NCBI GenBank assembly: GCA_041661745.1
Contig: JBAZTR010000002.1
Span: 4,368 to 68,367, forward strand
Length of the DNA: 64,000 bases
From: Patescibacteria group bacterium
GTDB taxonomy: Bacteria > Patescibacteriota > Patescibacteriia > UBA9934 > GWF2-40-263
Direction: 5' to 3'
Each line of letters begins with the position of its first letter. Positions within the stretch are counted from its first letter, which is position 1. Below, piece by piece: positions 8,737 to 48,445 of this stretch. The notes below the pieces were generated by a model. It was given only the letters and a program-made list of their open reading frames with translations, searched no databases and had not been told where the DNA came from. The position numbers and the translations under genes are program-made.

Positions 8737-8743
8737 TTATCAA

Positions 8744-9361
8744 CTAGTTATTTCCCGGCAGTTCAAACAATTTTCCGGCCCCGTTGGGATTATAACCGCT
8801 TTTGACTTCGGCTCCATCAAGATAACTGTCGCCGTCAGTATCAGGATTAAGCGGATCGGTTTTATAGACATCAACTTCCTCTCGGTCAAACAGTCCGTCG
8901 TCGTCAGTATCGGTTTTTTGGGCACTGGTACCAAGCTCGGCTTCGCGGGCGTCGGTTAATCCATCTTTATCAGTATCGACTTCCACAACGGTTTCTGGCA
9001 CAACTTCCTCTACGAGAGTCTCTTCCTCCTCAACATTTGTAGTTTGCTCCACAGCCGCGTTGTTGGCAATATTGGTTAAACTTTCGGTAACCGGCTCGCG
9101 GCTGCCTAAAATCATTGTCGACAACCATGCTCCGACGGCAATTACTATCACGGCGCCCATAATAATAATGATTGGTTTCCAACCTGAACTATGATTAATC
9201 ACCGGCGCTGTTTGCGGCGGCATTGGGGTTGGCGCGGAAACGAGCGGTGGCACTGAAGGGGTGGCGACCGGTCGTTGCGGCGGACGAAAAGGTGGCGGAA
9301 CATCCTCGGGTTTATCGGTTTCGGCAAAAATATCCGGTGGCTGTTTTATATCTTCGAACAT
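8744..9361 (-). CDS. hypothetical single-pass membrane protein with C-terminal Ca-binding DxDxDG repeats; paralog 2 of 3
   Basis: MFEDIKQ start, Pro-rich segment, one TM helix. DTDKDGLTDAREAE, DTDDDGLFD and DTDGDSYLDGAEVKSGYNPNGAGKL repeats. Confidence 0.6.
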   Translation of the reverse strand: MFEDIKQPPDIFAETDKPEDVPPPFRPPQRPVATPSVPPLVSAPTPMPPQTAPVINHSSGWKPIIIIMGAVIVIAVGAWLSTMILGSREPVTESLTNIANNAAVEQTTNVEEEETLVEEVVPETVVEVDTDKDGLTDAREAELGTSAQKTDTDDDGLFDREEVDVYKTDPLNPDTDGDSYLDGAEVKSGYNPNGAGKLFELPGNN

Positions 9362-10304: not shown

Positions 10305-13300
10305 TTACGGGAAGAACATGTCTTCAATTGATGACGAATCGCAATCATCGCCACAGGTATTAGCTACACAAGTCCCAGCTGTAGTTCCCCACACACCACT
10401 AGTTACACCGCAATAAAGGCTGGCCGACGACGAACCAACAACACATAGTCTATTTGTGTAGTCATAAAGAACTGGTGGCAAAATAAGTCTACGTGATCCA
10501 CCATCACAAATTCCCAAATCATCAGCGGCCATGGCAGAATAACCAGGGCCAAACAAAGAACAATCGCAAGTAGCTGTGTCAGTACAACTGGAAGCAAGTT
10601 TAATAACACGCGAGGCTGGATTAGTGGCACCTCTAACGCAATAAATATCCTCAAAAGCTGTTTCGTCACAAGACTCGCCACCGTCTATTATACTATCGCC
10701 GCAGACCGGCAAATAAGCCGACAGTGTATCGGTAGAACAAGTGCCATCACAAGTATTTGCCTTGCAGACTCCAGCATCGGCCCCAGAGCCGCACATTGCC
10801 TCGGACCACGAAGTTGACGTATAGCAAACCGCGCTATCAAAATCATAACCACCGGTTGTTCCGCCACTACAAATGCCCAGAATGTTTCCATAATTTTCGG
10901 CATAACCGGCGTCACAACCAGTATCTGATCCAAGAGCATAAATATCTCGCAGGCTTGGATCTTCATCAAAGTTAACGCAATATTTTGGAAAATCTCCCCC
11001 GTCACAATATTCACCGTCGGCCGTATCAATTCCACCATCACCGCAACCGGAATCGCAGGCATCACCGATTCCGTCACTGTCAGCATCGGCCTGACTAACA
11101 TTAACAACACTCGGACAATTATCTTCCACGTCAACAATTCCATCACCATCAGTATCAGCTAAAGTTTCGCCGCCGCCGACCGAGCCGACCGAGCCGGCCG
11201 CCCCCTCACAAACATCACCAATTTCGTTTAAGTTTGCGTCTGCTTGATCTTCGTTAGCATCGTTCGGACAATTATCATTAAAATCAAGAACGCCGTCACC
11301 GTCTGAATCTATAGTCGAAGACGCCCCGGTTCCAACACTAGCCGAGCTGGCCGGACAATAGGAAAGTTTAATATCACTAATATTCACGGTTCCTTCGCCG
11401 CTGAAAGAAATACGGAAAGGAATATTCCATTCGTTCTCTGTGTCACAGCCGAAGCCCTCGGGAAATGGAATAACAACATCATCGCCATCAAAAACTTCAT
11501 CCGAAGTCAAAGTGGTTTCTCCGGCAAAGTCAGTGGTGAAAGTCATGGTCAAACCAATAATACTGTCGGCGATTTGTTGATACATTTCGTCGAGGTCATC
11601 GGAGGAGCTGGCACTAAAAGCATATTCGATATCATCAGTTACCGAACAGTCGGCGACATTGCTATAAGCAGTTTCGGACGGATCGTTCTCGAGACAAGAA
11701 TCAGACGACCAATGGGCCATTTTACCAATAAGCGCATCAGTGGTCATGAGTGCTGCGGTATAAATTTCAATACCGTTAGCAATCGCCGCATTTCTAATGT
11801 CTTGAATTTCTTCGTAATATTTATAAGCCGAGGTATAGGTACTGCTATCAATAAGAACGTTTGGATCCCCATCACTTAAAAGAATAATGATTTGATCATC
11901 AGCCTCACTATCCTCAAGTATATTTGCCGCGCACTGCAAACCGGCCGATAAAGGTGTACTACCTCCAGTTCTTGTTGAATAACTTTCCACACTGTATTCA
12001 CCATAAATCAACTGTGATTCGTTTGTTGTTAAATCGCTATCAATCCAAGCCAATCCAGTCGTTCCGGCGGAATTGGTTATGCAAGCATCGGCCAAAGTGA
12101 TTGCTCCATCGTTATTATGATCCGAGCCATCTTCTAAAGTATTGGTAAAGCTAACCAAACCAATTTGCAAATTACTATAATCATCAAAGGCATTAAATAG
12201 TTCTTGAATAGCTGACGAGATTGAATTAACCGTTGCTTCAATCTTTGTCGAAGACATGCTTCCCGATAAATCAGTCACAAAAACAATATCAACATCCAGC
12301 GGAATAATATTAGTTGTGTCGATATCGGCCGTCAGTGATGTGCCGACCGAACAGGCTGGTAAGAAAATAGAAGCCGTGTCAGGACTATCTCCCGAATTAT
12401 AACTGTAAAGATCAGCCGAGGTTTCTTCAGTTGCTCCGGCCAATTCGGTTTGAATGGAAACCGAAGTCGTTGAATAGGAAAAAGGACAGGTGGCACTGCA
12501 AGTGGCCCCGCAGTCGGCAACCATACAAGTTCCACCGCTAGAATCAATTCCGCAGTCATAGCCGGAAGAGCCAGTCCCGGCGACACATGGTGCGCCGTTG
12601 TAATCATAATAACCGTCTAATGTACAAATAAAATCGCCACAGACAGACGCTTGACGCCAGCCGCCATTACAAACACCGACCTGTTCCAAACAGTGGTAAT
12701 TATTATCCGTATCGCAGTCGGCGTCAGTTTCACAAGCCGAAGTCGAGATTCCGCGCTCGTCGGGATTTGTCCCAGCCAAATAACAATACTTTGGCAAATC
12801 CGAACCATCACAGAATTCACCGGTTTGCATTACCCCGTCACCACAATAAGAACCGGACATCGTAGTGTATTGGCAATTAACATTACAATAATTACAGGTG
12901 CCACTATAATCAGGTGAACAAACCGTGCCGTTTTCCAATCCATCGTCGCAAGTTTCATGGCCGGCATAAACCGCATCATCACCACAAATATTAAATTTAC
13001 ATTCCGCAGTACAGTCGTCGGTATTATCGTCGTTGCCATCATCACATTCTTCATCACCTTCAACACTGCCGTTGCCGCAAATTTGCGTGCCACCCAAACA
13101 AGCACTCCAGGTGTTCCAACCACAAGCGCCGCCAGTGCCATCGTCACAAGTTCGATAACGAGAAAGTTGATATTCAAAAGACGTCTTGCAGTCGCCGCCT
13201 CCGGTACAATCAGCGTCTTCACTACATTCTTCATTGTCACGATCGCCGCCATCACAAACCGCAGAAATCGGACAAGCAGCATAAACTGTGCCGCAATCGG

Positions 13301-16300
13301 TTTCATCACAATCAGCATCGGTTGTACAGGTCGCATAATTATCAGCTGCGCCGCACAAAGCCCCATTCCATGCTTCACTATTACCATCACATGATTCATC
13401 GCTATTCACTTCCCCATCGCCGCAAGACGGCCCGGGATAAGAGCAGTCGTAGGCGCAAGTGTGTGCCGCGTCAGCATCGTAAATGCCGTTAGCGTCCGCG
13501 CAAGAATTAATTGTTGACCAACTGGAAGTATCGGCGTGGACATCGGTCCAATTGGCAGTTGAACCGCAATCACATTCTTCGCCGCCGGCTAAATAACCAT
13601 CACCGCAATACCAGGCGTTATCCAAACCACAGTCACTGTCACAATATCCGTATTCTCCATTATTTGTTCCGTCATCGCAAGTTTCACCAGGATCAAGAAC
13701 ACCATTGCCACATTCATAAGGTGAACAAGAGCCACCAGCTGCTTCGGCTTCGGATTCATCCATGTAATCAGAACAATCAGAAAGACACGGAGCGTCCATT
13801 GTCCCATTGTTATCATCGATGCCGTCGTCGTCGCTATCGTAGGTACAAGAAATTGTGTCGGTATTACCTAATTCACAAATTTCACTTAAACCACGCACGC
13901 CATCACCGCAACGTGTCGAGGTTCCCAAATTTGAACCATTACAGAACTCACTATCAATTCTAAACCCATTTGCCACGTCTTCCGCATTGGCAAACTCCGC
14001 ATAAACAGTGGCATTATCAGTTGAATCGTCATCAATCGGATAAGCCCAATAATCACCAGGGGAATCTTCAAGTTGCACTGAAAGAATATATTCCTCACCG
14101 CCAATACTTTGATAAAGATAGGTATTAGAATCTTCGCTGCAAGAAAAAGTGCCGGCCGTTGAATCCCAACAATAAGTTTGATCAGTATAACCGGGACAAT
14201 AGAATTCGTTTAGAGGATCAGTAGGAATAGCTGTACCAAGGGCATTACCCAACTCAGCGTTCCATGATGGCCAAGTACTGGTGGAGAAAGCGGAAAGAAA
14301 TGTCCCGCTTTGAATTTCTGGCACTTCGGCCATACAGGTTTCATCATCGCCCGGACAATCATCATCCTCACTGCAATCCTGGCCTTTTGTTACCGAGCAG
14401 TGACGATTTTCTTCGCCGTAAGCGGCCAAGTCAGAGGCAATTTTACGAGCATCGGTTAAGCGTACCATGTTGCGACGCAGTTTTCCTTTTTCCGCATCAC
14501 AGAAAGCCGAAGCGTCGCTTAATTCACTAATACAATCCAAATTAGAAACACACGAAACATAATCACCTTCGGCGTTAACCGCGTAATCTCCGTCTGAAAC
14601 ACAGACATTAATGTCACTTACTTCAAGATCGCCAGAACTATTAAGACCGGCATTAAATTTCCAGTTCTCTAAAACCTGTTCAACAATGGCATCAGTTTCT
14701 TCACCAGCTCCTTCGTTATAAGAAATTACATAAATATTCGGATAATTGGTGACACTTGAAGAACTGTAATTAGCCGCTGAAACATAATAAGTATTACCGT
14801 CCTGAACCGCCTCATAGCCGTCCACTGTCGTTTCACTAGGTGAACCGGAAAAACCTTGAACATCAAACCAGGCCGATGGTGAAAGATAGTCCTCGTTGGA
14901 GAAAACCCGGACACCGATAGCGTCGCTGGTGCCATCAATTAAAAAGAGTCGCTCTTGAAGAATGTCCACGCCGCTCGGGGTAACCGGCGGTTCAACTTCG
15001 ATAAGCTCTGGTAAATTATCGCTTCCCTCTTGGTCGCGACAATAATAAAAGGAGAAATTAGAATAATCTTCAAGATACGGGAAAGCGGCGGTCATCGGAT
15101 TTGGCCACAAGGTTTCGCACATGTTCGCCTCCAGTTCAGCCGAACCGGTTACAATTGTGCCGTCAGAAACCACTGTGGCCGAGGCCGAGGCTAATTCCTC
15201 ACCGTTCACTCCCGAGGAGGTGACGGTGGTTGTTACATCATCGACATTGATCACTTCAATTACTGTCTCGGCCGACTCGTCGCCCCAACCCCAAGTCCAT
15301 GAGTAGTCATCGATTTCTTGAATTTCTTCGGCCGAAGCACCATCTAAAGTATAAGACGCGGCCAAAAGTGTGTGTTCTTCACCGGATTCGGTAAACAAGT
15401 ACGCACTCGGCTCGTCAAAAATATCCTTCAATTCGGTTTTACCAGTATCTTCAACGGAAACCATTTCCAAAGCGCAAATTTCCGTACCAACTTCAAAATT
15501 AACAATTTCACCATCGTAAATCGCCACGCCGTTGGTATTAACAACCCCTTCAACAATATTATCTAGTGGGTCACCGGCTGACTCGCCTAAAGCCACCAAA
15601 TTATAAGTTCCACTTTCAAGAGCCTGAGAAAAATCAAGATCAATTCTTGAACCATCACCAAGCTCGGATAAAGTATAAGAAACCGGAACAAGACATGCAC
15701 CAAACGTCTCCGCGTGAACCCCAAGAATTCTCAAAACGTTTTGAGCCAGCCATCCCCAAGCCCGGGAAAATAAATTATCACCCGAATCGTTGCGAGCAAT
15801 CAGCAAAGTAGTATAAGTGGTTGGACAGTTTGTTTCGTCGACAGCAATAGCAGTTGGTCCGGTGCCGATAGAAACAAATTCCAAATACAAAGCTCGTGAA
15901 TCATTTAGTCCGCCAGCGTCCATGGTTTGATCAAAATCCATGTAAACTGAAGTATTGCGACACACACCAGTTGACCCGGCAACCGGGTAATAGTCAGTAA
16001 TGGCCGGGCGTTTAAAACAACAAGCGGCATCGCCACATCCATAAGTTATACCACTGGTGTCACAGTTATAATCAGAGACACATGAACATTCCAGAGTGAA
16101 AGTCGCTGACCCCTCAGCCTCACTTGAACCCTCGGTCGCCACAATAGATGTAATGGCAATATTTTCACCGGAAGCCAAAACTTCTTGTGGTGCTTCTTCG
16201 GAAATTTCAGCAATGGTAAATGGGGCAACGCTGGTCACCCCGCTCGCTTCACACTCCTCACCAGCCTCGGTTTCTAAATCAAGGTCACCGCAAATTGAAC

Positions 16301-19300
16301 CATAATCTTCGTCCGATCCTTCACTCAAGCAAAGAGATGAACAACCGTCGTCATCGGTGGTATTGCCATCATCACAATCTTCGCCGGTTCCGATTTCACC
16401 ATCGCCACAAGCTGAAGGAATAGAGTAAGACGATGACGAACCTTCGTTTAGGCAAGACGACGAACACCCATCGCCATCGGTGGTGTTGCCGTCATCGCAA
16501 TCTTCGCCGTGTTCCGGGTCACTGCCATTGCCGCAGACACCATAAAAATTATCAATCGTTTCAGAACCTTCATTCAGACAATTGGCTGAGCAGTTATAAG
16601 CGGCTTTATCTTCACCGTAATCACACTCTTCCCCGCCAATCATATTGCTGTGAGCCACGAGACCGTCACCACAATCATATCCCAGGGATGAAGCCCCTTC
16701 GTTCAAACAAATAGACGAACAACCGTCATTGTTTGAAGTATTACCTAATTCGTCGCATTCCTCACCGATTCCTACTGCGCCATCACCGCAAACCGAAGGA
16801 GTACTGTAACTTCCACCGGAACCCAAACGAAGACAAGAAGAAGAACAGCCTTCCGTACCATCACAATCCTCCCCAAAGTCAATTTCACCATCACCACAAA
16901 CAGCTATCGGAGTTTCGGTTCCAATATGCAAACAATCTAAAGAACAACCATCGGCTAAATTATTAGAAATCATGATTGCCCCGCCACCAACCAAGTCGGC
17001 AATATTAGCCGTTGGCAATTCATCAGTTTCATCAATGGCCACCCAGGTTTCCCAGGTGTAGCCAGCGGCTATTAGTCGTTGGCCTTCGGCTGAACAGGCA
17101 TCGGGTGAGCCGTACGGCACAGCCGTAAAACGTTGAATTGTCCCAACCCGAGTGGCTGTGGCTTCGTTTGGTTCAACTTCTACTCGATCGACAGTACAAG
17201 CCTCAGCTTTAGTCGTAAAGGTCCATGACAAATCACCGTACCAAGCCAGGTCACCGGCCGCTTCACTTAACAACGAACCGCTCTCTGATTCAGCTTCACC
17301 AGAAATGATCACGCGATAAGAAGTATCAATCAACAAATTTCCGGGCGGAACAATTGTCAGTATGTCAGTTTCGTCATCGTAACTCGAGGCGACTGAACTA
17401 ATTTCTACTAGTTCATCAGGGGCACAACCTGGATCCTCGCAACTAAACAATCTAACTATTTGTTCACCACCACTATCCGTTCCGGAAAAAGTTCCGGCGG
17501 CCATTGGAATATTAAAAGTTGCGCCGATTTCCGCATCCAGGCAAGCTTCGGTACAACTCGGCCAGTAATCAGTAATTTTTGGATCAGTAAAGCTGATGGT
17601 TAAATATCCGTCATCACTGACACTGTAACCATCGGGCTGAGCATTAATCGCAACCGGGCCATCGGTGCCGGTTTCTTCCTCGGCTATAACCATCGCCCCA
17701 CAGCCGACAACACTACCAACACTTGCCTTACTCGAATCGCTGGAAGAAAAATTCCAGGTGTAAGGTGAACAGTCTAAAACCGTGCACTGATATTCCGAAC
17801 TGGTCGGCGCAGCACTATAAGCAATTTCCTCGTTTTGTATGTTTGAAGTCTTTTCGCCTGGCGAAACAATAACTCCACCAATTTCACAAGCGTCTCCAGA
17901 AGCCGCAGTTTCAAATTCCCAAATAACGTCTTCAAGCATTACTAAACCTTCGATACTTTGTATTGTTCCGACCTCACCACCATAAACGGTCACGCGATAT
18001 CGAGTATCGGCGGCCCAATCAGACGCGGGTATCCAGGTAAAACCACTTTCATTATAAGAAGTCGGCGAACTTTCCATTTCCACAGCCGCGGTGTCCGAAC
18101 AGGTTTTATCAGTACACTGCTCTACCAAAAAGCCGGCAGTTGAATATGAAAGCGCGTCCATGTCTTCGGTGAAACTGACACTTAAAGCCGCGTTAGAACA
18201 AATCTTTGTTCCGCCATCCCAACCTTCCCAAGGTGTCGGGGAAACCCATGTTTCATCACACTCAATGCGAACATCTGGCGCTTCAGGAATATCACCGGTG
18301 GAAAAATAATAGGCGTAATGTGAAACAGTCTCAGGGTCAACGCATTCCGTTGCTGAACAAGCCCCACTAGCACAACAAGTTTCACCCGAGCCGCAAGAAA
18401 AATCAACGTTACAAACGCCAACAGTAAAATTAACTTTGTTGGATTTCTGAGCATCACTGTCAATTACAATAACCGGACCACTGTTTGTGTCAGCAGGAAC
18501 AACCACGCCGGTTGTTTCACCAATTGCTCCACTCGTCCAATCATCAGTTGTGGCTGTTTGATCATTGAAAAAAGAAATCGAGCCGACCGTGGTACCAAAC
18601 CCCTCACCATATAAAGTAACCGCTGTGCCGACCGGACCGGAATTGGGAACAATGGCACAAAATCCGGGGGCCGCTTCGCCAGTAGTCACAACAAAGTTAA
18701 CTGCTTCGGATTTTAAACCATCTTCGGCCCGCTGTATGTATAAATCATGAGTAATCGCATCAACCGAATTGGTGTTGCTGTATTTCGCGGGAACTTTAAT
18801 AATAATTTCAGTATCACTCCAAAAACTGTCTTCGCATTCATCGGGAAAATTTGTGTCGCCTAAAGCTTCGTAATCTGTGCTTTGGCTAACAAACCGAACC
18901 GTTCCTTCGCTGGTACCAAAACCAGAACCATAAATGGTTAAATATTGGCCAATCGGGCCTTCTTCAGGATCAACCTGACTAATTACCGGAAGTTCCTCCT
19001 CAGTAACCGAAGTGGTAACAAATTGGAGTTCGTTAGAGCCCTCACGAGCATCGCCACTGCCGGTAAACAATTGAATATCGAAAATTCCGGCATCCAATAA
19101 CGGCGACACGGCCCCGAAAGATGTTGTTGACCAATCGCTGTAACTGGCCGCTTCATAAGAATCAAAATAAAGCGTAGCGTCAGTGCTTGATTCCCCAAGG
19201 TTAATACCGTGAAGTGTAACGGCAGAGCCAGCCTCGCCGCTTTCCGGATCAATAGAACAAAGGCCGGGGCGAACTGTTTCATTAACTTCAAAGTCGCTGA

Positions 19301-20870
19301 TATAAGAACCGTTTTCGTCGTTGGTTTGATCGTATTTGCCATCGGCAGCAATTAATTTAATCGGGCCGCTTTCGGCTTCGTCTTTTAATTGAATAATCAC
19401 TTGGCTATCACTCCAAGCTTCCACGCATTCCTCGCTGGAGTAAGCCGAATGACTAACTTCGGTCGTTGTCCCTAGAAAGACAACACTGCCCGGCGCTTCA
19501 CCAAAGCCTTGGCCAGAAATAGTAATTAAGTTACCAGGAGCGCCATCACCGGGCGAGACGGCTTCGATTTCCACTTCCTCTTCGCAAACACCATCAACAC
19601 ATGATCCGGAAGAGCAATCAGAGCTGTCAGTACATTCTTGGTTTTCGCAAGCGCCGCAATAAGAATCCGCCGATGAACTGCCACCACAATCAATCCCACT
19701 TTCACTTTCGTCTTGTACACCATTGTGGCACGAAGCGGCCCGTAACATCACGCTAATTTCCGCATCAACATCGTTACCGGCGCAATCAGAACCCTCGGCC
19801 AAAATACTATGGTCATCGTTGGTAAAATATCCGGCCGTGTCCCATTCGCTGTCAAAATAACCATCACCTTCGATGTCATTAACTGTGCTATTAATTCCGG
19901 TATCAATATAGAAATCAACCGAGGCTACCCCAGTATCATCAACCGCATATGCTTGAAGCATAGCGGCTTCGTCAGCGTAAACTGACTCGCCATCATCAGG
20001 CGCCGTAATTTCAAAAACCGTTGGCGCGGCTAAATCAAACCCCGTGCCCGTGGTAAAAGTAAATTCACACGGGTAAGCGGTTGAGCATTGAAGATCATAA
20101 CCACTGGAGCTTTGCAAAGCCGAACTGATGGTAATGTTATAGGTCGTTTCCGCTTCAAAACAATTAACTGAATAATCATCTTCGGCAAAACAGATTGCCT
20201 CAGGAGTAAAAGTAAACGAAGTGGCGCTGGCCGTGGTTGAGCGTCCAACCGCGGCAAAAGTGCCAGCCACTTCTTCCCCACCCTTGCTGATAGAAATGCC
20301 GGTGCCATCAACAACATCTTCCGTGGCTACGCGCTGACTGAAAATAAAACGCAACTCCAAATTTTGCAAACTTGAAGCGCAATCGGTATTAACACTGGTT
20401 AAAACAAAGGAATGGGCGTAATCAGGAATATCGCCACCGCCGCCCCCGCCGCCAACTTCAGTCCCGACGCCGCCACCAATTGAGCTAGTTAGTCTTGATA
20501 AAACAAATTGAGCGATGGTAAAAGAAGAAAGCATTATCAAAAGTCCGATAAGGCCGTTCTTTAAAACTTTTTTAGCTTTGGCTATTTTTTCTTCTTCACC
20601 ACCGGCCGTGACCCACAAAAAGCCAGCGTACAAAACAACAATTACCGCAACAATTCCCAAAAAGCCCAAAAAGGTTCGAATCGCTCGGGCAATCATTAAA
20701 ACCAGACTGCCGCTAGCCAAACCGGACGAGGCGGCAAAAGTTTCGCTATCGCCGCCAAACATTTGATTAGCGGTGAGAGTTTCGGCCAGAGCCGGAGTAA
20801 CAAACAAAAGGCCAAGGGCCACGCCTAATCCGACAATTATTAATAAAGATAAGAGACGATTTTTTTTCAC
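10305..20870 (-). CDS. giant (3521-aa) secreted or surface protein with a TrbC/VirB2-type pilin-like N-terminal membrane anchor, then IPT/TIG domains, tandem myxococcal Cys-rich repeats, a vWA domain and thrombospondin type-3 Ca-binding repeats
   Basis: Signal peptide ending ALA, then two TM helices around YAGFLWVTAGGEEEKIAKAKKVL and a poly-Gly linker. IPT-like GxGFG segments (ISGQGFGEAPGSVVF, TIYGSGFGTSEGTVRF, TLYGEGFGTTVGSISF). At least 10 CGDG-x-GE-CDDGN-x-DGCS-x-C repeats. vWA MIDAS DIVFVTDLSGSMS...SDGDP. DSDGDGVLDFNDNCPNDANEDQAD and DTDGDGIVDVEDNCP thrombospondin-3 repeats. Starts 4 nt downstream of the preceding gene. Confidence 0.8.
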   Translation of the reverse strand: MKKNRLLSLLIIVGLGVALGLLFVTPALAETLTANQMFGGDSETFAASSGLASGSLVLMIARAIRTFLGFLGIVAVIVVLYAGFLWVTAGGEEEKIAKAKKVLKNGLIGLLIMLSSFTIAQFVLSRLTSSIGGGVGTEVGGGGGGGDIPDYAHSFVLTSVNTDCASSLQNLELRFIFSQRVATEDVVDGTGISISKGGEEVAGTFAAVGRSTTASATSFTFTPEAICFAEDDYSVNCFEAETTYNITISSALQSSSGYDLQCSTAYPCEFTFTTGTGFDLAAPTVFEITAPDDGESVYADEAAMLQAYAVDDTGVASVDFYIDTGINSTVNDIEGDGYFDSEWDTAGYFTNDDHSILAEGSDCAGNDVDAEISVMLRAASCHNGVQDESESGIDCGGSSSADSYCGACENQECTDSSDCSSGSCVDGVCEEEVEIEAVSPGDGAPGNLITISGQGFGEAPGSVVFLGTTTEVSHSAYSSEECVEAWSDSQVIIQLKDEAESGPIKLIAADGKYDQTNDENGSYISDFEVNETVRPGLCSIDPESGEAGSAVTLHGINLGESSTDATLYFDSYEAASYSDWSTTSFGAVSPLLDAGIFDIQLFTGSGDAREGSNELQFVTTSVTEEELPVISQVDPEEGPIGQYLTIYGSGFGTSEGTVRFVSQSTDYEALGDTNFPDECEDSFWSDTEIIIKVPAKYSNTNSVDAITHDLYIQRAEDGLKSEAVNFVVTTGEAAPGFCAIVPNSGPVGTAVTLYGEGFGTTVGSISFFNDQTATTDDWTSGAIGETTGVVVPADTNSGPVIVIDSDAQKSNKVNFTVGVCNVDFSCGSGETCCASGACSATECVDPETVSHYAYYFSTGDIPEAPDVRIECDETWVSPTPWEGWDGGTKICSNAALSVSFTEDMDALSYSTAGFLVEQCTDKTCSDTAAVEMESSPTSYNESGFTWIPASDWAADTRYRVTVYGGEVGTIQSIEGLVMLEDVIWEFETAASGDACEIGGVIVSPGEKTSNIQNEEIAYSAAPTSSEYQCTVLDCSPYTWNFSSSDSSKASVGSVVGCGAMVIAEEETGTDGPVAINAQPDGYSVSDDGYLTISFTDPKITDYWPSCTEACLDAEIGATFNIPMAAGTFSGTDSGGEQIVRLFSCEDPGCAPDELVEISSVASSYDDETDILTIVPPGNLLIDTSYRVIISGEAESESGSLLSEAAGDLAWYGDLSWTFTTKAEACTVDRVEVEPNEATATRVGTIQRFTAVPYGSPDACSAEGQRLIAAGYTWETWVAIDETDELPTANIADLVGGGAIMISNNLADGCSLDCLHIGTETPIAVCGDGEIDFGEDCDGTEGCSSSCLRLGSGGSYSTPSVCGDGAVGIGEECDELGNTSNNDGCSSICLNEGASSLGYDCGDGLVAHSNMIGGEECDYGEDKAAYNCSANCLNEGSETIDNFYGVCGNGSDPEHGEDCDDGNTTDGDGCSSSCLNEGSSSSYSIPSACGDGEIGTGEDCDDGNTTDDDGCSSLCLSEGSDEDYGSICGDLDLETEAGEECEASGVTSVAPFTIAEISEEAPQEVLASGENIAITSIVATEGSSEAEGSATFTLECSCVSDYNCDTSGITYGCGDAACCFKRPAITDYYPVAGSTGVCRNTSVYMDFDQTMDAGGLNDSRALYLEFVSIGTGPTAIAVDETNCPTTYTTLLIARNDSGDNLFSRAWGWLAQNVLRILGVHAETFGACLVPVSYTLSELGDGSRIDLDFSQALESGTYNLVALGESAGDPLDNIVEGVVNTNGVAIYDGEIVNFEVGTEICALEMVSVEDTGKTELKDIFDEPSAYLFTESGEEHTLLAASYTLDGASAEEIQEIDDYSWTWGWGDESAETVIEVINVDDVTTTVTSSGVNGEELASASATVVSDGTIVTGSAELEANMCETLWPNPMTAAFPYLEDYSNFSFYYCRDQEGSDNLPELIEVEPPVTPSGVDILQERLFLIDGTSDAIGVRVFSNEDYLSPSAWFDVQGFSGSPSETTVDGYEAVQDGNTYYVSAANYSSSSVTNYPNIYVISYNEGAGEETDAIVEQVLENWKFNAGLNSSGDLEVSDINVCVSDGDYAVNAEGDYVSCVSNLDCISELSDASAFCDAEKGKLRRNMVRLTDARKIASDLAAYGEENRHCSVTKGQDCSEDDDCPGDDETCMAEVPEIQSGTFLSAFSTSTWPSWNAELGNALGTAIPTDPLNEFYCPGYTDQTYCWDSTAGTFSCSEDSNTYLYQSIGGEEYILSVQLEDSPGDYWAYPIDDDSTDNATVYAEFANAEDVANGFRIDSEFCNGSNLGTSTRCGDGVRGLSEICELGNTDTISCTYDSDDDGIDDNNGTMDAPCLSDCSDYMDESEAEAAGGSCSPYECGNGVLDPGETCDDGTNNGEYGYCDSDCGLDNAWYCGDGYLAGGEECDCGSTANWTDVHADTSSWSTINSCADANGIYDADAAHTCAYDCSYPGPSCGDGEVNSDESCDGNSEAWNGALCGAADNYATCTTDADCDETDCGTVYAACPISAVCDGGDRDNEECSEDADCTGGGDCKTSFEYQLSRYRTCDDGTGGACGWNTWSACLGGTQICGNGSVEGDEECDDGNDDNTDDCTAECKFNICGDDAVYAGHETCDDGLENGTVCSPDYSGTCNYCNVNCQYTTMSGSYCGDGVMQTGEFCDGSDLPKYCYLAGTNPDERGISTSACETDADCDTDNNYHCLEQVGVCNGGWRQASVCGDFICTLDGYYDYNGAPCVAGTGSSGYDCGIDSSGGTCMVADCGATCSATCPFSYSTTSVSIQTELAGATEETSADLYSYNSGDSPDTASIFLPACSVGTSLTADIDTTNIIPLDVDIVFVTDLSGSMSSTKIEATVNSISSAIQELFNAFDDYSNLQIGLVSFTNTLEDGSDHNNDGAITLADACITNSAGTTGLAWIDSDLTTNESQLIYGEYSVESYSTRTGGSTPLSAGLQCAANILEDSEADDQIIILLSDGDPNVLIDSSTYTSAYKYYEEIQDIRNAAIANGIEIYTAALMTTDALIGKMAHWSSDSCLENDPSETAYSNVADCSVTDDIEYAFSASSSDDLDEMYQQIADSIIGLTMTFTTDFAGETTLTSDEVFDGDDVVIPFPEGFGCDTENEWNIPFRISFSGEGTVNISDIKLSYCPASSASVGTGASSTIDSDGDGVLDFNDNCPNDANEDQADANLNEIGDVCEGAAGSVGSVGGGETLADTDGDGIVDVEDNCPSVVNVSQADADSDGIGDACDSGCGDGGIDTADGEYCDGGDFPKYCVNFDEDPSLRDIYALGSDTGCDAGYAENYGNILGICSGGTTGGYDFDSAVCYTSTSWSEAMCGSGADAGVCKANTCDGTCSTDTLSAYLPVCGDSIIDGGESCDETAFEDIYCVRGATNPASRVIKLASSCTDTATCDCSLFGPGYSAMAADDLGICDGGSRRLILPPVLYDYTNRLCVVGSSSASLYCGVTSGVWGTTAGTCVANTCGDDCDSSSIEDMFFP

Positions 20871-43575: not shown

Positions 43576-44334
43576 TTATTCATTCCTAGTAAGCACGATT
43601 TCTTCAAAAGCTTCAGGTTGTTGAACTTTAATTATTCTTTGTTTTACTAATTCAAGCAGGGCTAAAAAACTCACCACCACTTCAGCCCGCGATTTGGCCG
43701 CGCCAACCACATCGGAAAACATAAACCTGGCCCGTTTCATTATTGCCTCGTGGATGTCGCGAATACGCTCCTCAACCGAGGCGACTCGTTCCAGCGAAGC
43801 TTGGCGTAAAGCGAAAAAAGGTTCCAGACGTTTAATCAGACCACGGAAAGCTTCGGCCAAAACATTTGTTGTCACGTTTTCCGGCGGACGAAAACCAACT
43901 TCAACCGGCAACGGCACATATGGCCGGGCAAACAACACTGCCCCGCCCAAATACATATTTTCCAATTTGCCGGCCACGTCCACAAAAGTGCGATAAAGTC
44001 TAAGCTGGGCGGCTAAATTGCTTTGCTCAACTGCCTCTTCAAGTGGGACAGGCAAAATGGAATTAGATTTAATCAGCAATAAACGCGCGGCCACGGTTAA
44101 AAAATCTGCCAGCTCTTCGGCTGGAACATTATTTTCGTTTATAAACTTAAGATAATCGCCAGTAACTTGGGCCAGCGACACCTCGGAAATCGGCAACTCC
44201 TCCTTTTCAATTAAAGTAAGCAGCAAATCAAGCGGACCGGAGAATTTTTCTATTGAAACTTCGTAAGACACAATTTTATGGACGCAGTCTTTGAACATCG
44301 CGAGGGAAAAGAGTGGCTTCTTTGATGTTATCAA
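43576..44334 (-). CDS. scpA: segregation and condensation protein A (kleisin)
   Basis: FSGPLDLLLTLIEKEEL N-terminal motif. The 5' end overlaps the 3' end of the upstream aaRS gene, so the true start may be the internal Met. Confidence 0.85.
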   Translation of the reverse strand: MITSKKPLFSLAMFKDCVHKIVSYEVSIEKFSGPLDLLLTLIEKEELPISEVSLAQVTGDYLKFINENNVPAEELADFLTVAARLLLIKSNSILPVPLEEAVEQSNLAAQLRLYRTFVDVAGKLENMYLGGAVLFARPYVPLPVEVGFRPPENVTTNVLAEAFRGLIKRLEPFFALRQASLERVASVEERIRDIHEAIMKRARFMFSDVVGAAKSRAEVVVSFLALLELVKQRIIKVQQPEAFEEIVLTRNE

Positions 44335-45586
44335 GACCGAGAATGTTTTGCGTCATTCTTTGTAAACCCATACCAAATCCACCTTCTGGCGGAATACCGA
44401 ATTTATGCATCATTAAATAATCTTCAAAGTCGGCCGGATTCAATCCTTTGGCTTTAATTCTTTCCACTTGCTCGTCATAGCGGTTAATACGTAAACCACC
44501 GGAAATTATCTCGCTACCAAAACCGATTAGGTCAAAACTCAAAGTTGAGGTTAAATCTTCTGGATCAACCACTGTATAAAACGGCCGTTTCTTTTCCGGA
44601 TAGTGTGTTACAAAAACAAAACCGCAATTATGTTCTTTTGGCCCCCAAACCGTTGATAGCCATTTTTCGGCCGCCGGCGAAAGGTCCGGCTCGGCTGTTT
44701 CATCAATCCCCGTTCCTTGCTTATAAAGCTCCAGAGCCTCGGTCAACCTGATACGCGGAAATTTTTCACCAAGCGGTGGCAGAGTTGTATTTAATAGTGA
44801 CAATTCCGTCTGACAATCCTCGGAAACGGTTTTCAACATCGTTCTAATGGAAGCCTCGGCGTAGTTCATGATGTCTTCCATATTATCAACGAAACCGACT
44901 TCGAATTCCAATTGGTTAAATTCCGTTAAATGCCGCGAGGTGGCAAATTTTTCAGCCCGGAAAGAATACGAAACTCCATACACCCCTTCGAAAACGCCCA
45001 TGGTAATTTGTTTGTACAGCTGTGCTGACTGGGAAAGGGTGGCTTCGCGGCCGTAATAATCAACTTTAAAAAATTCCGCTCCACCTTCGGAAGCCGCACC
45101 AGCCAAAACCGGAAAAAATATCTCTGTAAAATCTTGGCTGTCCATGTAAGTGCGGAAGCCTTTAACTAAAGCCGCCTGCACGCGAAAAATTGCCCGCTGT
45201 TTTGGATGACGCAAGGTTATAACCCGATTATCAAGAAGCGTTTCCAATTGAACTTCCAAATTATCTTTGTTTATTTCAACCGGCACCACGTCTTTTACTG
45301 GTGACAACACTTCCACCTTGGTTGCCTGTACTTCAACTTCGTTGGCGTTTGGATCTTTGCTTTGTTTTTTTACCACCCTACCGGTAACCCGTAACACGGT
45401 TTCCATTTGCAGGTCTTTAATTTGCCCGAGCTGGTCGGCATCAAGCACCACCTGCAATAATCCGGTGCGATCGCGCAAAATAGCAAAACCAAATTTGTTC
45501 AAATCGCGTAAACGATGAAGCCAACCGGCAACGATTACTTCTTCACCAATCTTTTGAGCAACATCTTTGTTTAAAACTCGATTCAT
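44276..45586 (-). CDS. aspS: class IIb aspartyl-tRNA synthetase (archaeal/non-discriminating type) or a second AsnRS-like enzyme
   Basis: OB-fold N-terminus, motif 2 FRAEKFATSRHLTEFNQLEFE and motif 3 GGFGMGLQRMTQ, and the ending LFPRDVQRLRP. At 436 aa it is too short for a bacterial-type AspRS. Confidence 0.7.
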   Translation of the reverse strand: MNRVLNKDVAQKIGEEVIVAGWLHRLRDLNKFGFAILRDRTGLLQVVLDADQLGQIKDLQMETVLRVTGRVVKKQSKDPNANEVEVQATKVEVLSPVKDVVPVEINKDNLEVQLETLLDNRVITLRHPKQRAIFRVQAALVKGFRTYMDSQDFTEIFFPVLAGAASEGGAEFFKVDYYGREATLSQSAQLYKQITMGVFEGVYGVSYSFRAEKFATSRHLTEFNQLEFEVGFVDNMEDIMNYAEASIRTMLKTVSEDCQTELSLLNTTLPPLGEKFPRIRLTEALELYKQGTGIDETAEPDLSPAAEKWLSTVWGPKEHNCGFVFVTHYPEKKRPFYTVVDPEDLTSTLSFDLIGFGSEIISGGLRINRYDEQVERIKAKGLNPADFEDYLMMHKFGIPPEGGFGMGLQRMTQNILGLDNIKEATLFPRDVQRLRP

Positions 45587-45600
45587 ATAAAATTTATTCT

Positions 45601-45637
45601 CCCTCTCCTTACGAAGGAGAGGGTTGGGGTGAGGTTA
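45601..45637. repeat. hairpin repeat element, copy 1 (CCCTCTCC-TTACGAA-GGAGAGGG-TTGGGGTGAGGTTA); its last TTA is the stop codon of asnS
   Basis: Perfect 8-bp stem with a 7-nt loop. Lies between two co-directional genes. Confidence 0.7.
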
Positions 45638-46936
45638 GGGGGTAATTCTGTTGATCAGTCTTGGAAATGGAATGGATTCGCGAACATGTTCAAGGCCGCA
45701 AATCCAGGTAACCAGACGTTCAAGACCAAAACCAAAACCAGAATGCGGCACTGAACCGTATTTGCGTAAATCCAGATACCATTGAAAAGCGTCGAGCGGC
45801 AGATTGTGTTCTTTAATGCGCGCCAACAATATTTCGTAATCATCTTCACGTTGACTGCCACCGATGATTTCGCCATAACCTTCCGGGGCAAGCAGGTCAG
45901 CACAAAGAGCACGCGACGGATCAGCTGGATCGCGCTTCATGTAAAAAGCTTTCACCTCGGCTGGATATTTTTCCACAAAAATCGGGCGATCGTATTGCTT
46001 GGTCAAAATCGTTTCATCATCACCGCCCAAATCATCCATTTCCCCAATGTCGCTACCGAGTTCGTGGAGTTTGGCCACGGCTTCGGCATGGGTCATACGG
46101 ACAAACGGGGCCTGAATTTTTTGCAATGGTTCAATGGATCGCTCCAAAACTTTCAACTCGTGCTGGTTCTTTTCCAAAACATCTTTGACAATGCGGCAAA
46201 CCAATTCTTCTTGAATCTTCAAGTTCTCGTCGTGCTCAACAAACGCTGCTTCGGCATCCATCATCCAAAATTCTGTCAGGTGACGGCGAGTCTTTGATTT
46301 TTCAGCGCGAAAAACCGGACCAAAATCAAAACACTTGCCCAAGCTCATCACTCCGGCTTCCAAATACAATTGACCAGACTGGGCCAGGTACGCTTTGCCA
46401 ACATCAAAATAATCCATTTCAAAAAGTTCCGTTGTTCCCTCGCAGGCATTCGGGGTCAAAATCGGCGTATCGAATTTTACAAAACCGGTTTCCTTAAAAT
46501 AATCGTAGGTGGCACGAATAATGGTGTCGCGAACGCGTTGAATGGCCCACTGCTTTTCAGCGCGGAGCCACAAATGACGATTGTCGAGCAAGAAATCCGG
46601 ACCGTGTTCTTTTTTACCAATTGGATAATCCTCGGGTGCGAGCTGAACAATTTCAACCAAAGTGCCATCAAGTTCAAAACCCGAAGGGGCGCGTGGTTCG
46701 GCCTTAACCGTGCCATGAATAATAACCGAAGATTCAATGCGAAGGGTGGTTAATTTTTCCCACTGTTCAGCCGGCAAACTGGCCGCCGAATAAACGATTT
46801 GTACTCGGCCGGTGCCATCGCGAAACTGCAAGAAAAAAATCTTACCGCTGGAGCGGAAGTTGTAGGCCCAACCCTTAAGTTCGACCTCCTGACCGACGTA
46901 TTTTTGGATCTCGGAAACAAATGTATATTTAGGCAT
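45635..46936 (-). CDS. asnS: asparaginyl-tRNA synthetase
   Basis: FRAEKSKTRRHLTEFWMMDAE motif 2 (AsnRS-like), GFGFGLERLV motif 3, and the ending FPRLINRITP. Confidence 0.8.
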   Translation of the reverse strand: MPKYTFVSEIQKYVGQEVELKGWAYNFRSSGKIFFLQFRDGTGRVQIVYSAASLPAEQWEKLTTLRIESSVIIHGTVKAEPRAPSGFELDGTLVEIVQLAPEDYPIGKKEHGPDFLLDNRHLWLRAEKQWAIQRVRDTIIRATYDYFKETGFVKFDTPILTPNACEGTTELFEMDYFDVGKAYLAQSGQLYLEAGVMSLGKCFDFGPVFRAEKSKTRRHLTEFWMMDAEAAFVEHDENLKIQEELVCRIVKDVLEKNQHELKVLERSIEPLQKIQAPFVRMTHAEAVAKLHELGSDIGEMDDLGGDDETILTKQYDRPIFVEKYPAEVKAFYMKRDPADPSRALCADLLAPEGYGEIIGGSQREDDYEILLARIKEHNLPLDAFQWYLDLRKYGSVPHSGFGFGLERLVTWICGLEHVRESIPFPRLINRITP

Positions 46937-47084
46937 AATGCACTGGTTAGTTTAGCGTAATTATTGGATTTGGTGAAGTGGAAAACCAGGCGGAAAACAA
47001 GAGGAAAAATAGCGAAAATTAGACAAAAAAATCGACCTGTTTAAAGCGGGTCGATTTTTAAAGTCTTGACCCTCATCAAAAGTA

Positions 47085-47122
47085 TTGACAAAAACAAAAA
47101 AATGGCTTAATCTAGCCATGGC
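47085..47122 (+). promoter_or_regulatory. sigma70 promoter (TTGACA, 17-nt spacer, TAATCT) with a perfect 10-bp palindrome AGCCATGGCT immediately downstream of the -10 (putative operator)
   Basis: Consensus -35 at 47085-47090 and -10 at 47108-47113. The palindrome at 47113-47122 overlaps the expected +1. AGGAG RBS at 47181-47185, 5 nt before the GTG start. Confidence 0.5.
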
Positions 47123-47190
47123 TTTTCGGAGTGGTTCCGTTAGCCAATTCCCCGCGGCGATCACCCACTGACCGCCCATAAGGAGCTCAC

Positions 47191-47616
47191 GTGTCCCTCG
47201 GCTATTCTCCCCCCTCCCAACCCTCGGCCACTGACCTTCTCGCCCGCGCCGCCCACATCGCTCCATCGAGCATCCTCAGCGCTCGGCGAGCCAAGTGCCA
47301 CCCCGCGGTACTACGGGAAGTCTGTCGGAACCCTGGCGATCGGCCGGTCTACTCGCACCTGCGTCACGTGGTGCAGTGCCTGGCCTACACCTACGATCCG
47401 GCCTGCCTTCAGCTCGTCATCGACGAGTGTGGCAGCGATGCTGATGCTCTGGCCCTGGCCGTGATCACGGTCAATCGGCGCCCGGAGCTTCGCAACGTTC
47501 TGCCGGCAATCTTCGGAAACGACACGGTCAGCCTGGTCGTGAGCCGCTTCACGGATCGGGTCAGCCCGAAGCTGATCCGTGAGTGGAACGAATTCCTCCG
47601 GCCCCGCCGCCGCTAG
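47191..47616 (+). CDS. hypothetical 141-aa protein in a strongly GC-rich island; GTG start, own promoter, RBS and terminator
   Basis: Clean ORF on the opposite strand to all its neighbours. The Ala/Arg/Pro-rich composition reflects the high GC content. I recognise no domain. Confidence 0.55.
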   Translation: MSLGYSPPSQPSATDLLARAAHIAPSSILSARRAKCHPAVLREVCRNPGDRPVYSHLRHVVQCLAYTYDPACLQLVIDECGSDADALALAVITVNRRPELRNVLPAIFGNDTVSLVVSRFTDRVSPKLIREWNEFLRPRRR

Positions 47617-47636
47617 TCGTTTCGCTTCATTTCCTC

Positions 47637-47675
47637 CGTCGTCATCCCTCAGGGACTGACGACTTTTATTTTTAC
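47637..47675 (+). terminator. rho-independent terminator of the GC-rich cassette
   Basis: GTCGTCA-TCCCTCAGGGAC-TGACGAC hairpin followed by TTTTATTTTT. Overlaps the last codons of recO on the other strand. Confidence 0.65.
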
Positions 47676-48445
47676 AAGTTACAGGCCGCGCGCAAAGTCG
47701 TGGCTGGAATTGTCGGAAAGTGGGCCACAAGTAATCCTTCCACGGCTTCGTGATATTCACCCAAAATTTCACCATTCAATCTTGGCCGCAACAATTCATT
47801 AAATCTTTCACTTAAAGCAAAACGCATTAATTTTAAAACATCATCTGATAATGGTCGTGCCGAAAACCATTGTTCCCCGTCGGCCTGGACGCAGGCGCGA
47901 CAAACCACCCCACCCTTCAACGCATGCCAATGAAACTCGCCGGGACGAATTGTTTCGCGACACTGCAGGCATCCGCCGAGTTCCGGACGATAACCAAGCA
48001 AGGCTAAAAGTTTAAGGGCAAAAGCAGAAAGTAAAAAAGCGGCGCGTTCCGAAGTTAGGTCTGGTGCTTTATGTAAAAAAATAAGAAAATTTTTCACTTC
48101 GTCGTATAAAGACCAATCAATTTCGTGTTCACGTGTCCCCAAATCAACCAACTGCAGCATGTGATGCGCCACCAGCGATTTTGACAAATCGTCATACAAA
48201 CCGGCAAACGATCTTAATCTTTCCACTCCAGCCACGGTCTCATGGGCTCGTCCGTGGACCACCAGCAAATCAACTTCAGCGCAAAACTCCAGGTGTGGAG
48301 AAAGTTTAGCCAAAGGCTTACGCGCCCCCCGACCAATAATTTCCACCTTGCCGTGTTCGCGGGTTAAAACAGAATAAACGCGATCTGACTCCCGCCAGTC
48401 GCGTTTATTTAAAACAATGCCGGTTGTGTGATAAAGAATCGACAC
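47672..48445 (-). CDS. recO: DNA repair protein RecO
   Basis: N-terminal OB fold (TTGIVLNKRDWRESDRVYSVLTREHGKVEIIG) and a C-terminal Cys4 zinc motif. Confidence 0.85.
   Translation of the reverse strand: MSILYHTTGIVLNKRDWRESDRVYSVLTREHGKVEIIGRGARKPLAKLSPHLEFCAEVDLLVVHGRAHETVAGVERLRSFAGLYDDLSKSLVAHHMLQLVDLGTREHEIDWSLYDEVKNFLIFLHKAPDLTSERAAFLLSAFALKLLALLGYRPELGGCLQCRETIRPGEFHWHALKGGVVCRACVQADGEQWFSARPLSDDVLKLMRFALSERFNELLRPRLNGEILGEYHEAVEGLLVAHFPTIPATTLRAACNL

What the first reader, a model, noticed from the sequence alone, without database searches (positions are those of the whole stretch)
47040..47680. Self-contained, strongly GC-rich gene cassette on the opposite strand from all its neighbours
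A ~600-bp segment between asnS and recO is far more GC-rich than its flanks (by eye above 60% against roughly 47%). It carries a near-consensus sigma70 promoter (TTGACA, 17-nt spacer, TAATCT), a perfect 10-bp palindrome AGCCATGGCT at the predicted +1 (operator-like), a strong AGGAG RBS, a GTG-initiated 141-aa ORF and a canonical hairpin plus U-tract terminator whose 3' end overlaps the recO stop. Both the strong SD and the GC content are foreign to this genome, so this looks like a recently acquired single-gene module, possibly from a high-GC donor. It could be a toxin/immunity-type protein or a phage moron.
Basis: partly seen in the sequence, partly recalled or inferred. Interest (0 to 1): 0.7.

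Follow-up and report, generated by a model that had tools for sequence, protein, structure and literature searches.

The report
Hypervariable GC-rich helical-repeat gene beside recO
The GC-rich segment is a real, self-contained gene for a small helical-repeat protein that sits next to recO in nearly all sampled Uhrbacteria (uncultured ultra-small bacteria), so it is not a recent foreign insert; its coding body differs almost completely between close relatives, while its promoter, leader and terminator stay the same.

Summary
Window 47120-47673 is 63% GC against a 45.6% background (z = 6.5). It carries a promoter, a 71-nt structured leader, AAGGAG, a GTG-started 141-codon ORF, and a terminator that shares its T-tract with the recO stop. 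In the 13 distinct related recO loci (Candidatus Uhrbacteria; L014 stops inside recO), 11 hold a gene in the same slot with the same conserved "shell". In 10 of the 11 its third-codon-position GC exceeds that of the adjacent recO; the eleventh was not compared.

The ORF is translated: the ortholog in L011 is 53% identical, codon-position differences are 50/36/69, and dN/dS is about 0.4. AlphaFold gives a confident model (pLDDT 91) of an all-alpha solenoid with a disordered Pro/Ser-rich tail. No sequence or fold library gives a specific match.

The ORF body is hypervariable. Genomes with 93-97% identical RecO carry ORFs only 24-36% identical, and homology breaks sharply just inside the leader and just before the terminator.

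The most likely reading is a strongly expressed binding protein under diversifying selection, with alleles exchanged by recombination. Its function is unknown. The excess of C-ending codons and the Shine-Dalgarno site in a genome that largely lacks them remain unexplained.

The parts
47032..47059 (.). Hairpin TCGACC/GGTCGA with an A-run before it and a T-run after it. It is a terminator-like insulator between the cassette promoter and the asnS start. On the - strand it would stop recO read-through.
   Evidence: Read directly from the sequence. It also appears as a stem in the - strand fold.
47085..47113 (+). Promoter: -35 TTGACA (47085-47090), a 17-nt A-rich spacer, and -10 TAATCT (47108-47113).
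   Evidence: The -35, the A-rich spacer and a -10-like hexamer are conserved in position in 11 cassettes. The consensus scan did not call it because the -10 matches only 3 of 6 positions.
47103..47123 (.).
   Evidence: reported as a terminator-like site on the - strand. The repeat is shared with L011 and L004, weaker in L008, and absent in L009, L001 and L002.
47120..47190 (+). Predicted 71-nt 5' UTR. It holds a 5'-terminal hairpin (47120-47145), the CCCCGCGG motif (47150-47157), a second hairpin (about 47156-47176) and the SD AAGGAG (47180-47185).
   Evidence: Fold. Every one of the 12 cassettes has a hairpin starting at or next to the predicted +1, with compensatory changes in the outer stem (G-C to A-U, C-G to U-A). 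12 of 12 have an SD-like core.
47191..47616 (+). CDS, GTG start, 141 aa. Residues 1-12 form a disordered Pro/Ser-rich tail and residues 13-136 form nine helices (alpha-solenoid). C45, H56, H59 and C63 are invariant within its subclass.
47160..47630 (+). Hypervariable body. There is no detectable nucleotide homology here with the closest relatives (L008, L009), although the flanks on both sides align.
   Evidence: The same pattern holds for L001 vs L002.
47638..47673 (+). Intrinsic terminator: hairpin 47638-47663 and T-tract 47664-47673. The T-tract contains the recO stop codon (47672-47674 on the - strand).
   Evidence: It is about 77% identical to the L008 terminator. All cassettes end in a hairpin plus T-run.
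47672..48445 (-). recO, the conserved convergent neighbour that anchors the locus.
45635..46936 (-). asnS, the other conserved border of the variable recO-asnS gap.

Best explanation
The segment is a genuine, autonomously expressed, monocistronic protein gene. It is ancestral to its lineage (Candidatus Uhrbacteria, Candidate Phyla Radiation), not a recent import.

A conserved sigma70-type promoter starts a transcript near 47120. A hairpin at the very 5' end probably protects the mRNA. An SD, rare in this genome, drives translation from GTG 47191. An intrinsic terminator ends the transcript inside the recO stop codon.

The product is a roughly 15-kDa soluble all-alpha helical-repeat (HEAT/ARM-like solenoid) protein with a disordered Pro/Ser-rich N-terminus. 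This is a binding scaffold rather than an enzyme.

Across relatives the promoter, leader and terminator form a conserved 'shell'. The ORF body falls into deeply divergent allele classes that do not follow the RecO relationships. Alleles are therefore most likely exchanged by homologous recombination through the shell and flanks, or sorted from tandem arrays such as the one in L004, under diversifying or frequency-dependent selection. That pattern points to a role in an antagonistic or recognition interaction, such as inhibitor, immunity, anti-defence or partner recognition.

Shown: the anatomy, translation, synteny, hypervariability with sharp break points, the compositional anomaly as a family trait, and the predicted fold class.

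Inferred: the start site, mRNA stabilisation, high expression, the recombination mechanism, and the biological role.
For: Anatomy.

Translation: window vs the L011 ortholog is 53% identical at the protein level over 135 codons. Differences by codon position are 50/36/69, with dN 0.42 and dS 1.02. GC3 > GC1 > GC2. An SD plus a start codon sit at the same place in 12 of 12 cassettes.

Synteny: 11 of 13 distinct recO loci carry the cassette convergent to recO.

One family: an HMM built from the other classes scores the window protein above 1000 of 1000 shuffles. An HMM of the window's own class scores L006 and L002 above 500 of 500 shuffles. hhalign between two of the other classes (the class of L008/L009/L004b vs the class of L001/L004a/L002/L013) gives E = 6e-5.

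Hypervariability: RecO is 97% identical between L001 and L002 but their cassettes are 27% identical. For L001 vs L003 the figures are 95% and 24%. For the window vs L008 they are 92% and 27%, whereas the window vs L011 is 78% and 54%. Break points lie just after the first hairpin and about 30 nt before the terminator.

Tandem copies: L004 carries two cassettes, each with its own shell.

Family-wide GC3 excess: 0.55-0.83 against 0.25-0.62 for the adjacent recO. The excess is specifically in C-ending codons: C3 is 0.45 against 0.21 in core genes, while G3 is unchanged. It is not expression-linked, because ribosomal protein genes show C/(C+T) of 0.40 against 0.67 in the cassettes.

Against: No function is demonstrated and no partner gene is linked.

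Homology between the window's class and the others rests on weak profile signals. hhalign gives E = 0.009 against one class and nothing against the other.

The structure model rests on only 5 sequences.

Isoelectric points range from 4.5 to 10.1 across members, so no single conserved ligand such as DNA is likely.

There is no transcript or protein evidence.

Gene callers disagree on the ORF: 82, 86 and 168 aa, and an antisense 139 aa.

Sharp break points could also arise from in-place rapid divergence with purifying selection acting only on the regulatory shell.
Confidence: 0.7

Rival explanations
1. Recent horizontal acquisition of a single-gene module, or a phage moron, from a high-GC donor.
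For: GC content, C-ending codon usage and the SD are foreign to the genome. In relatives the recO-asnS gap also holds other GC-rich genes. One of them, the P-loop protein of L011, has more than 800 homologs in unrelated phyla, so the gap does receive foreign DNA. The codon usage of the cassettes correlates with those island genes (RSCU r = 0.87) and not with core genes (r = -0.03).
Against: The gene, its shell and its compositional excess are present at the same site in lineages down to 58-60% RecO identity. An exhaustive phmmer search of 1.84 billion representative proteins finds relatives only at recO-adjacent Uhrbacteria loci. There is no phage or PHROG match and no viral contig match. A well-sampled high-GC donor would have left homologs in these databases.
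Confidence: 0.12
2. The alleles diverged in place through locally accelerated evolution, with no allele exchange. One possible cause is a strongly transcribed head-on gene suffering conflicts between transcription and replication. Selection would preserve only the promoter, leader and terminator.
For: It is the only + strand gene in a 24-kb run of - strand genes, and the GC skew indicates that the - strand is the leading strand. It has a strong promoter. dN/dS is 0.4-0.7 within classes.
Against: Divergence does not scale with RecO divergence: RecO 93% goes with a 36% identical cassette, while RecO 78% goes with 41-54%. The window's allele class recurs in the distant L011 and L016, but not in the close L008 and L009. 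L004 carries two classes side by side. Break points are abrupt.
Confidence: 0.13
3. The functional product is an RNA, either a structured non-coding RNA or an antisense/convergent regulator of recO, and the ORF is incidental.
For: The region is GC-rich in a lower-GC genome. The full transcript folds better than shuffled sequence (z = -3.2), and some cassette bodies also do (z down to -4.8). The cassette is convergent with recO. recO has no U-tract terminator of its own, so recO read-through would be antisense to the cassette up to the hairpins at 47119-47102 and 47054-47032.
Against: There is no Rfam match at gathering or permissive thresholds. Neither sequence nor structure is conserved in the body, yet the substitution pattern is codon-periodic. 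Body z-scores are inconsistent: -0.1 for L011 and -1.45 for the window. The SD and start codon are conserved. The protein model is confident.
Confidence: 0.05

Closest known systems
Replacement-type flexible genomic islands, i.e. hypervariable loci between conserved core genes such as O-antigen or capsule loci and strain-specific defence or immunity slots (own knowledge)
   Same: The core flanks (recO, asnS) are conserved. The content is unrecognisably different in very close relatives. Composition is atypical. The content's relationships disagree with those of the flanks, which implies exchange by homologous recombination.
   Different: Here the slot holds one small cytoplasmic protein. All alleles belong to a single divergent family. 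The promoter, leader and terminator are part of the conserved frame. The compositional anomaly persists in every lineage.
HEAT/ARM-type alpha-solenoid repeat proteins
Phage morons and other single-gene insertion modules with their own promoter and terminator
   Same: It is an autonomous promoter-ORF-terminator unit with composition unlike its surroundings.
   Different: It is not in a prophage, has no phage homologs, and is conserved in synteny across the lineage.
Variable gene families with a conserved 5' expression region, such as Mycoplasma vlp/vsa-type loci (own knowledge)
   Same: The promoter and 5' region are conserved, the coding bodies are divergent, and copies can be tandem (L004).
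   Different: Those encode surface lipoproteins with signal peptides and vary by repeats or phase switching. This family has no signal peptide, no repeats and no switching element.
5'-terminal stem-loop mRNA stabilisers, such as the ompA, ermC and aprE leaders (own knowledge)
   Same: The hairpin begins at or next to the predicted +1 in all 12 leaders, with compensatory base changes.
   Different: The transcription start is only predicted, and stabilisation has not been tested.

Membership tests
Recently acquired island / phage moron | Absent from the orthologous site in close relatives | tested here: not met
   The cassette is present downstream of recO in 11 of 13 distinct related loci. It is absent only in L010, and L005/L015 hold a short AT-rich ORF instead.
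Recently acquired island / phage moron | Prophage context or phage homologs | tested here: not met
   The neighbours are asnS, aspS, recO, ruvX and map. PHROGs, the phage tblastn search, BFVD fold search and a viral-contig scan for the shell were all negative.
Recently acquired island / phage moron | Composition unlike the host genome | tested here: met
   GC z = 6.5. GC3 is 0.78 against 0.431 +/- 0.06 for the window's ORFs.
Toxin-antitoxin or toxin-immunity pair | Two adjacent co-transcribed genes | tested here: not met
   The gene is monocistronic, lying between its own promoter and terminator, and the flanks are asnS and recO.
Toxin-antitoxin or toxin-immunity pair | Match to a known toxin, antitoxin, immunity or defence model | tested here: not met
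   PADLOC, Pfam and NCBIfam give no consistent hit for 11 members.
HEAT/ARM alpha-solenoid proteins | Stacked antiparallel helical-repeat fold | tested here: met
HEAT/ARM alpha-solenoid proteins | Sequence match to the HEAT or Arm repeat profiles | tested here: not met
   No Pfam repeat family matches at E up to 10, apart from one member with Ank_2 at E = 0.18.
Known structured RNA (Rfam) | Match to a covariance model | tested here: not met
   There is no hit in the element at gathering thresholds, and only chance-level hits (E at least 1.8) at permissive thresholds.
Integron gene cassette | Promoterless ORF followed by attC, expressed from a common Pc promoter | tested here: not met
   Every unit, including both tandem units of L004, has its own promoter, leader and terminator.
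Integron gene cassette | Adjacent integron integrase | not tested
   The immediate neighbours are housekeeping genes. The rest of the genome was not scanned.
Target of a diversity-generating retroelement | Template repeat matching the variable region, with a reverse transcriptase nearby | tested here: not met
   No second copy of any part of the cassette exists in the 64-kb window. In addition, variation spans the whole ORF, not a short C-terminal variable region.

The most novel reading that the evidence does not exclude
The locus is a dedicated single-slot 'expression shell'. The conserved promoter, 5'-hairpin leader and terminator would serve both as expression signals and as homology arms. 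Through them, highly diverse binder ORFs would be swapped in from a gene pool that is compositionally distinct from the Uhrbacteria core genome, being rich in C-ending codons and using SD sites. That pool might be an unsampled mobile element or the bacterial host of these episymbionts. The result would be an integrase-free, integron-like system that diversifies a recognition or inhibitor protein. A related reading is that a persistent local process, such as biased gene conversion at a recombination hotspot, keeps GC3 high.
Probability: 0.12. Interest if true: 0.75.

Novelty: new variant of a known kind. Interest (0 to 1): 0.5.

Why it matters
Candidate Phyla Radiation bacteria have tiny genomes, and little of their strain-level variation is understood. 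This locus appears to be kept across a lineage, is probably strongly expressed, and turns over its coding content faster than almost anything around it. That pattern marks proteins involved in conflict or recognition with phages, hosts or kin.

The gene is almost invisible to standard pipelines. Gene callers truncate it, extend it, or call the antisense strand, and only four distinct true family members exist as called proteins in the two libraries searched (5.8 billion clusters and 1.84 billion representatives).

The compositional anomaly is also a clean natural case. Synonymous sites are saturated between orthologs, yet C-ending codons and an SD persist in a genome that largely lacks SD sites. 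This allows a test of whether recombination-linked GC bias, repeated import, or selection on mRNA maintains atypical composition in bacteria.

Tried and rejected
- Known RNA: Rfam at gathering and permissive thresholds gave nothing in the element.
- Protein libraries: Pfam, PADLOC, PHROGs, NCBIfam and a PDB sequence profile gave no consistent match.
- Phage link: the phage tblastn search, a viral-contig scan for the promoter/leader pattern, and a BFVD fold search were all negative.
- Fold search: Foldseek against PDB gave no hit with E of 0.001 or better. The afdb50 library was unavailable.
- P0006: this 4582-aa protein hit (E = 5e-10 over 31 stretches) was rejected as a compositional or repeat artefact. 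It is made of beta-rich Ig/cadherin-like repeats.
- tblastn hit at window 8609-8758: rejected because it lies antisense to a real gene.
- Diversity-generating retroelement: no template repeat in the window.
- Expression-linked codon bias: rejected because ribosomal protein genes have GC3 of 0.37-0.44.
- Selection for mRNA structure in the ORF: z-scores are inconsistent, from -0.1 to -4.8.
- SD occlusion in the leader: P(paired) is 0.61-1.0 in all 12 leaders, but there was no composition-matched control, so the result is inconclusive.
- A general link between high GC3 and SD presence across all loci: not significant with automatic start calls (Fisher p = 0.12).
- Strain variation: an exact-protein lookup of RecO found only a 100% identical contig, so it gave no strain-level information.
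- Literature: searches found nothing on this locus.
Full report
**1. The observation**

The segment is real and far from chance.
- The predicted transcript (47120-47673) is 63.0% GC and the ORF is 65.7% GC. The best 500-nt window reaches 0.65, against mean 0.456, sd 0.03 and maximum 0.556 elsewhere in the window, giving z = 6.5.
- On the + strand the sequence reads as follows: TTGACA (47085-47090), a 17-nt A-rich spacer, TAATCT (47108-47113), the palindrome AGCCATGGCT (47114-47123), AAGGAG (47180-47185), GTG at 47191, 141 codons to TAG at 47614-47616, a hairpin at 47638-47663, and a T-tract at 47664-47673 that contains the recO stop.
- The -10 matches TATAAT at only 3 of 6 positions, and the consensus scan did not call the promoter. 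'Near-consensus' holds only for the -35.
- The flanks are asnS (535 bits against the equivalog model) and recO.
- Every other ORF between 39874 and 64000 lies on the - strand.

**2. Where it comes from**

RecO-anchored scans of reference genomes and metagenomes returned 14 loci, 12 of them distinct. L012 duplicates L004 and L015 duplicates L005. The named loci are Candidatus Uhrbacteria, part of the Candidate Phyla Radiation. One further locus, L016, came from an exhaustive protein search. L014 ends inside recO and is uninformative, which leaves 12 informative distinct relatives.

In all informative loci except L010 and L005/L015, the DNA immediately downstream of recO is GC-rich. It carries, on the opposite strand, a unit with the same build: TTGACA, an A-rich spacer, a -10-like hexamer, a hairpin at the predicted +1, a second hairpin, an SD-like core, a start codon, a 120-175-codon ORF, and a hairpin plus T-run next to the recO stop. 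L004 has two such units in tandem.

**3. It is translated**
- The window ORF and its ortholog in L011 are 53% identical over 135 codons. Differences by codon position are 50/36/69, with dN 0.42 and dS 1.02.
- GC1/2/3 are 0.70/0.50/0.78.
- All 12 cassettes have GGAG, GAGG or AGGA at SD distance from the start.
- Rfam finds nothing, and the ORF bodies share neither sequence nor consistent folding excess.
- Gene callers handle the locus badly. They give 82 aa (JGI), 86 aa (NCBI), 168 aa running through the leader (JGI), and an antisense 139-aa ORF (Logan). This explains why the family is nearly absent from protein databases.

**4. The protein**
- A single-sequence AlphaFold run was poor (pLDDT 54).
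- With a five-sequence alignment the model is confident (pLDDT 91.2, pTM 0.84). It shows a disordered N-terminal tail of about 12 residues followed by nine short helices.
- No sequence library matches.
- Members share a Pro/Ser-rich tail, which contains PPP or PPPP in 5 of 12, and one invariant proline.
- Isoelectric points range from 4.5 to 10.1.
- The window's subclass keeps C45-x10-H56-x2-H59-x3-C63 invariant. That this is a metal site is inference only.

**5. One family, extreme divergence**

The cassettes fall into sequence classes: window/L011/L016; L008/L009/L004b; L001/L004a; L002/L013; and L003 and L006 each on their own.
- hhalign links the L008/L009/L004b class to the L001/L004a/L002/L013 classes at E = 6e-5. 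It links the window's class to the latter only at E = 0.009, and shows no link to L008/L009/L004b.
- A composition-controlled test is clearer. An HMM of all other classes scores the window protein above 1000 of 1000 shuffles. An HMM of the window's class scores L006 (16.7 bits) and L002 above 500 of 500 shuffles.

I treat them as one family. The structural confirmation is still missing.

**6. Hypervariability inside a conserved shell**

| Pair | RecO identity | Cassette identity |
|---|---|---|
| L001 vs L002 | 97% | 27% |
| L001 vs L003 | 95% | 24% |
| L002 vs L013 | 93% | 36% |
| window vs L008 | 92% | 27% |
| window vs L009 | 89% | 24% |
| window vs L011 | 78% | 54% |
| window vs L016 | 69% | 36% |

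- Column-wise alignment of L001 and L002 shows about 90% nucleotide identity through recO, the terminator, the promoter and the first 25 or so nucleotides of the leader. Identity is at chance level in between and upstream of the promoter.
- The window against L008 behaves the same way, with break points near 47160 and 47630.
- Cassette relationships therefore disagree with RecO relationships. This favours allele exchange through the conserved shell and flanks, or sorting from tandem arrays, over clock-like divergence in place.

**7. The compositional anomaly is a family trait**
- Cassette GC3 exceeds the adjacent recO GC3 in all nine loci where the two were compared directly: for example 0.66 vs 0.25 in L009, 0.81 vs 0.49 in L011, and 0.83 vs 0.62 in L006. 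L016's cassette GC3 is 0.48, but its recO was not measured; L013 was not compared.
- The excess is in C-ending codons. C3 is 0.45 against 0.21 in core genes, while G3 is 0.21 against 0.22.
- Ribosomal protein genes in the window do not share it. In two-fold Y boxes C/(C+T) is 0.40 for them against 0.67 for the cassettes, and their GC3 is 0.37-0.44.
- Synonymous sites between orthologs are saturated, so a one-off foreign signature should have decayed.
- The same codon usage (RSCU r = 0.87) occurs in other GC-rich genes that occupy the recO-asnS gap in some relatives. One of these, a P-loop protein with no Pfam domain, has more than 800 homologs in unrelated phyla.
- The gap is thus a variable hotspot, 0.3 to 4.3 kb long.
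- Only 3-4 of 56 window genes have an SD-like core.
- Candidate causes are recombination-linked GC bias (PMC4450053, found), repeated import from an unsampled pool, and selection on the mRNA. None is demonstrated. A strand-symmetric process does not easily explain an excess of C without G.

**8. Regulatory details**
Its right half is the 5' arm of the leader hairpin. Its left half pairs with ATGGCT upstream of the -10, and on the - strand this looks like a weak terminator.
- The outer stem of the leader hairpin shows compensatory changes between cassettes.
- The hairpin at 47032-47054, with A and T runs on either side, would insulate asnS.
- recO has no U-tract terminator of its own, so antisense read-through across the cassette is possible.

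**9. Verdict**

It is wrong on recency, on the operator and on the moron.

The best reading is an ancestral, lineage-restricted, probably highly expressed gene for a small alpha-solenoid binding protein. Its coding body is exchanged or sorted among deeply divergent alleles within a conserved expression shell. It plausibly serves an antagonistic or recognition interaction.

The biochemical function and the cause of the C3 and SD anomaly remain open.

Noticed in passing
window, the starts of 56 genes (for example - strand starts at 23641, 38729 and 50842): The genome is almost free of SD sites: 3-4 of 56 genes have an SD-like core. Several genes have TATAAT ending about 8 nt before the ATG, which suggests leaderless mRNAs.
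   Followed up: partly
L011 5488-6567 (+); L004 8845-9879 (+); L010 from about 4960 (+): A very GC-rich (GC3 0.88) P-loop protein of 344-359 aa (motif LIALPASGKSE) sits in the recO-asnS gap of some relatives. It has no Pfam or NCBIfam match but more than 800 homologs at about 40% identity in unrelated phyla (Actinomycetota, Erysipelotrichaceae, Polyangiaceae). It is an uncharacterised, widely distributed family.
   Followed up: partly
L004 7361-8563 (-); L008 5700-6732 (+ strand of the locus); L002 1982-2815 (+): GC-rich acidic secreted or lipoprotein genes with Asp-rich repeats lie in or near the same hotspot. They share the cassette's C-ending codon usage.
   Followed up: partly
L009 5532-7150: In this relative the gap also holds a LysE-type exporter and a 309-aa class II aminoacyl-tRNA-synthetase-like paralog that lacks the anticodon-binding domain (AsnA-like).
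   Followed up: partly
L004 about 7100-7290 (- strand): A tandem array of an approximately 18-nt unit (CTCTCAAGCCTCTCCAAC) lies immediately upstream of the promoter of the first cassette.
   Followed up: no
window 47311-47775 (-) and L017 1706-2125: A long antisense ORF shadows the cassette, as is typical of GC-rich genes. One pipeline called it as the gene (139 aa), and other pipelines truncated or extended the true ORF.
   Followed up: yes
window 10305-20870 (-): A giant 3521-aa ORF.
   Followed up: no
window 44276-45586 and 45635-46936 (-): Adjacent paralogous class II synthetases: a non-discriminating-type aspS and asnS.
   Followed up: partly
5' UTRs of the cassettes (window 47150-47157): The motif CCCCGCGG, or a close variant, is conserved 30-40 nt into most leaders, at the point where homology between alleles ends. 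Its C-run can pair with the SD in predicted folds.
   Followed up: partly
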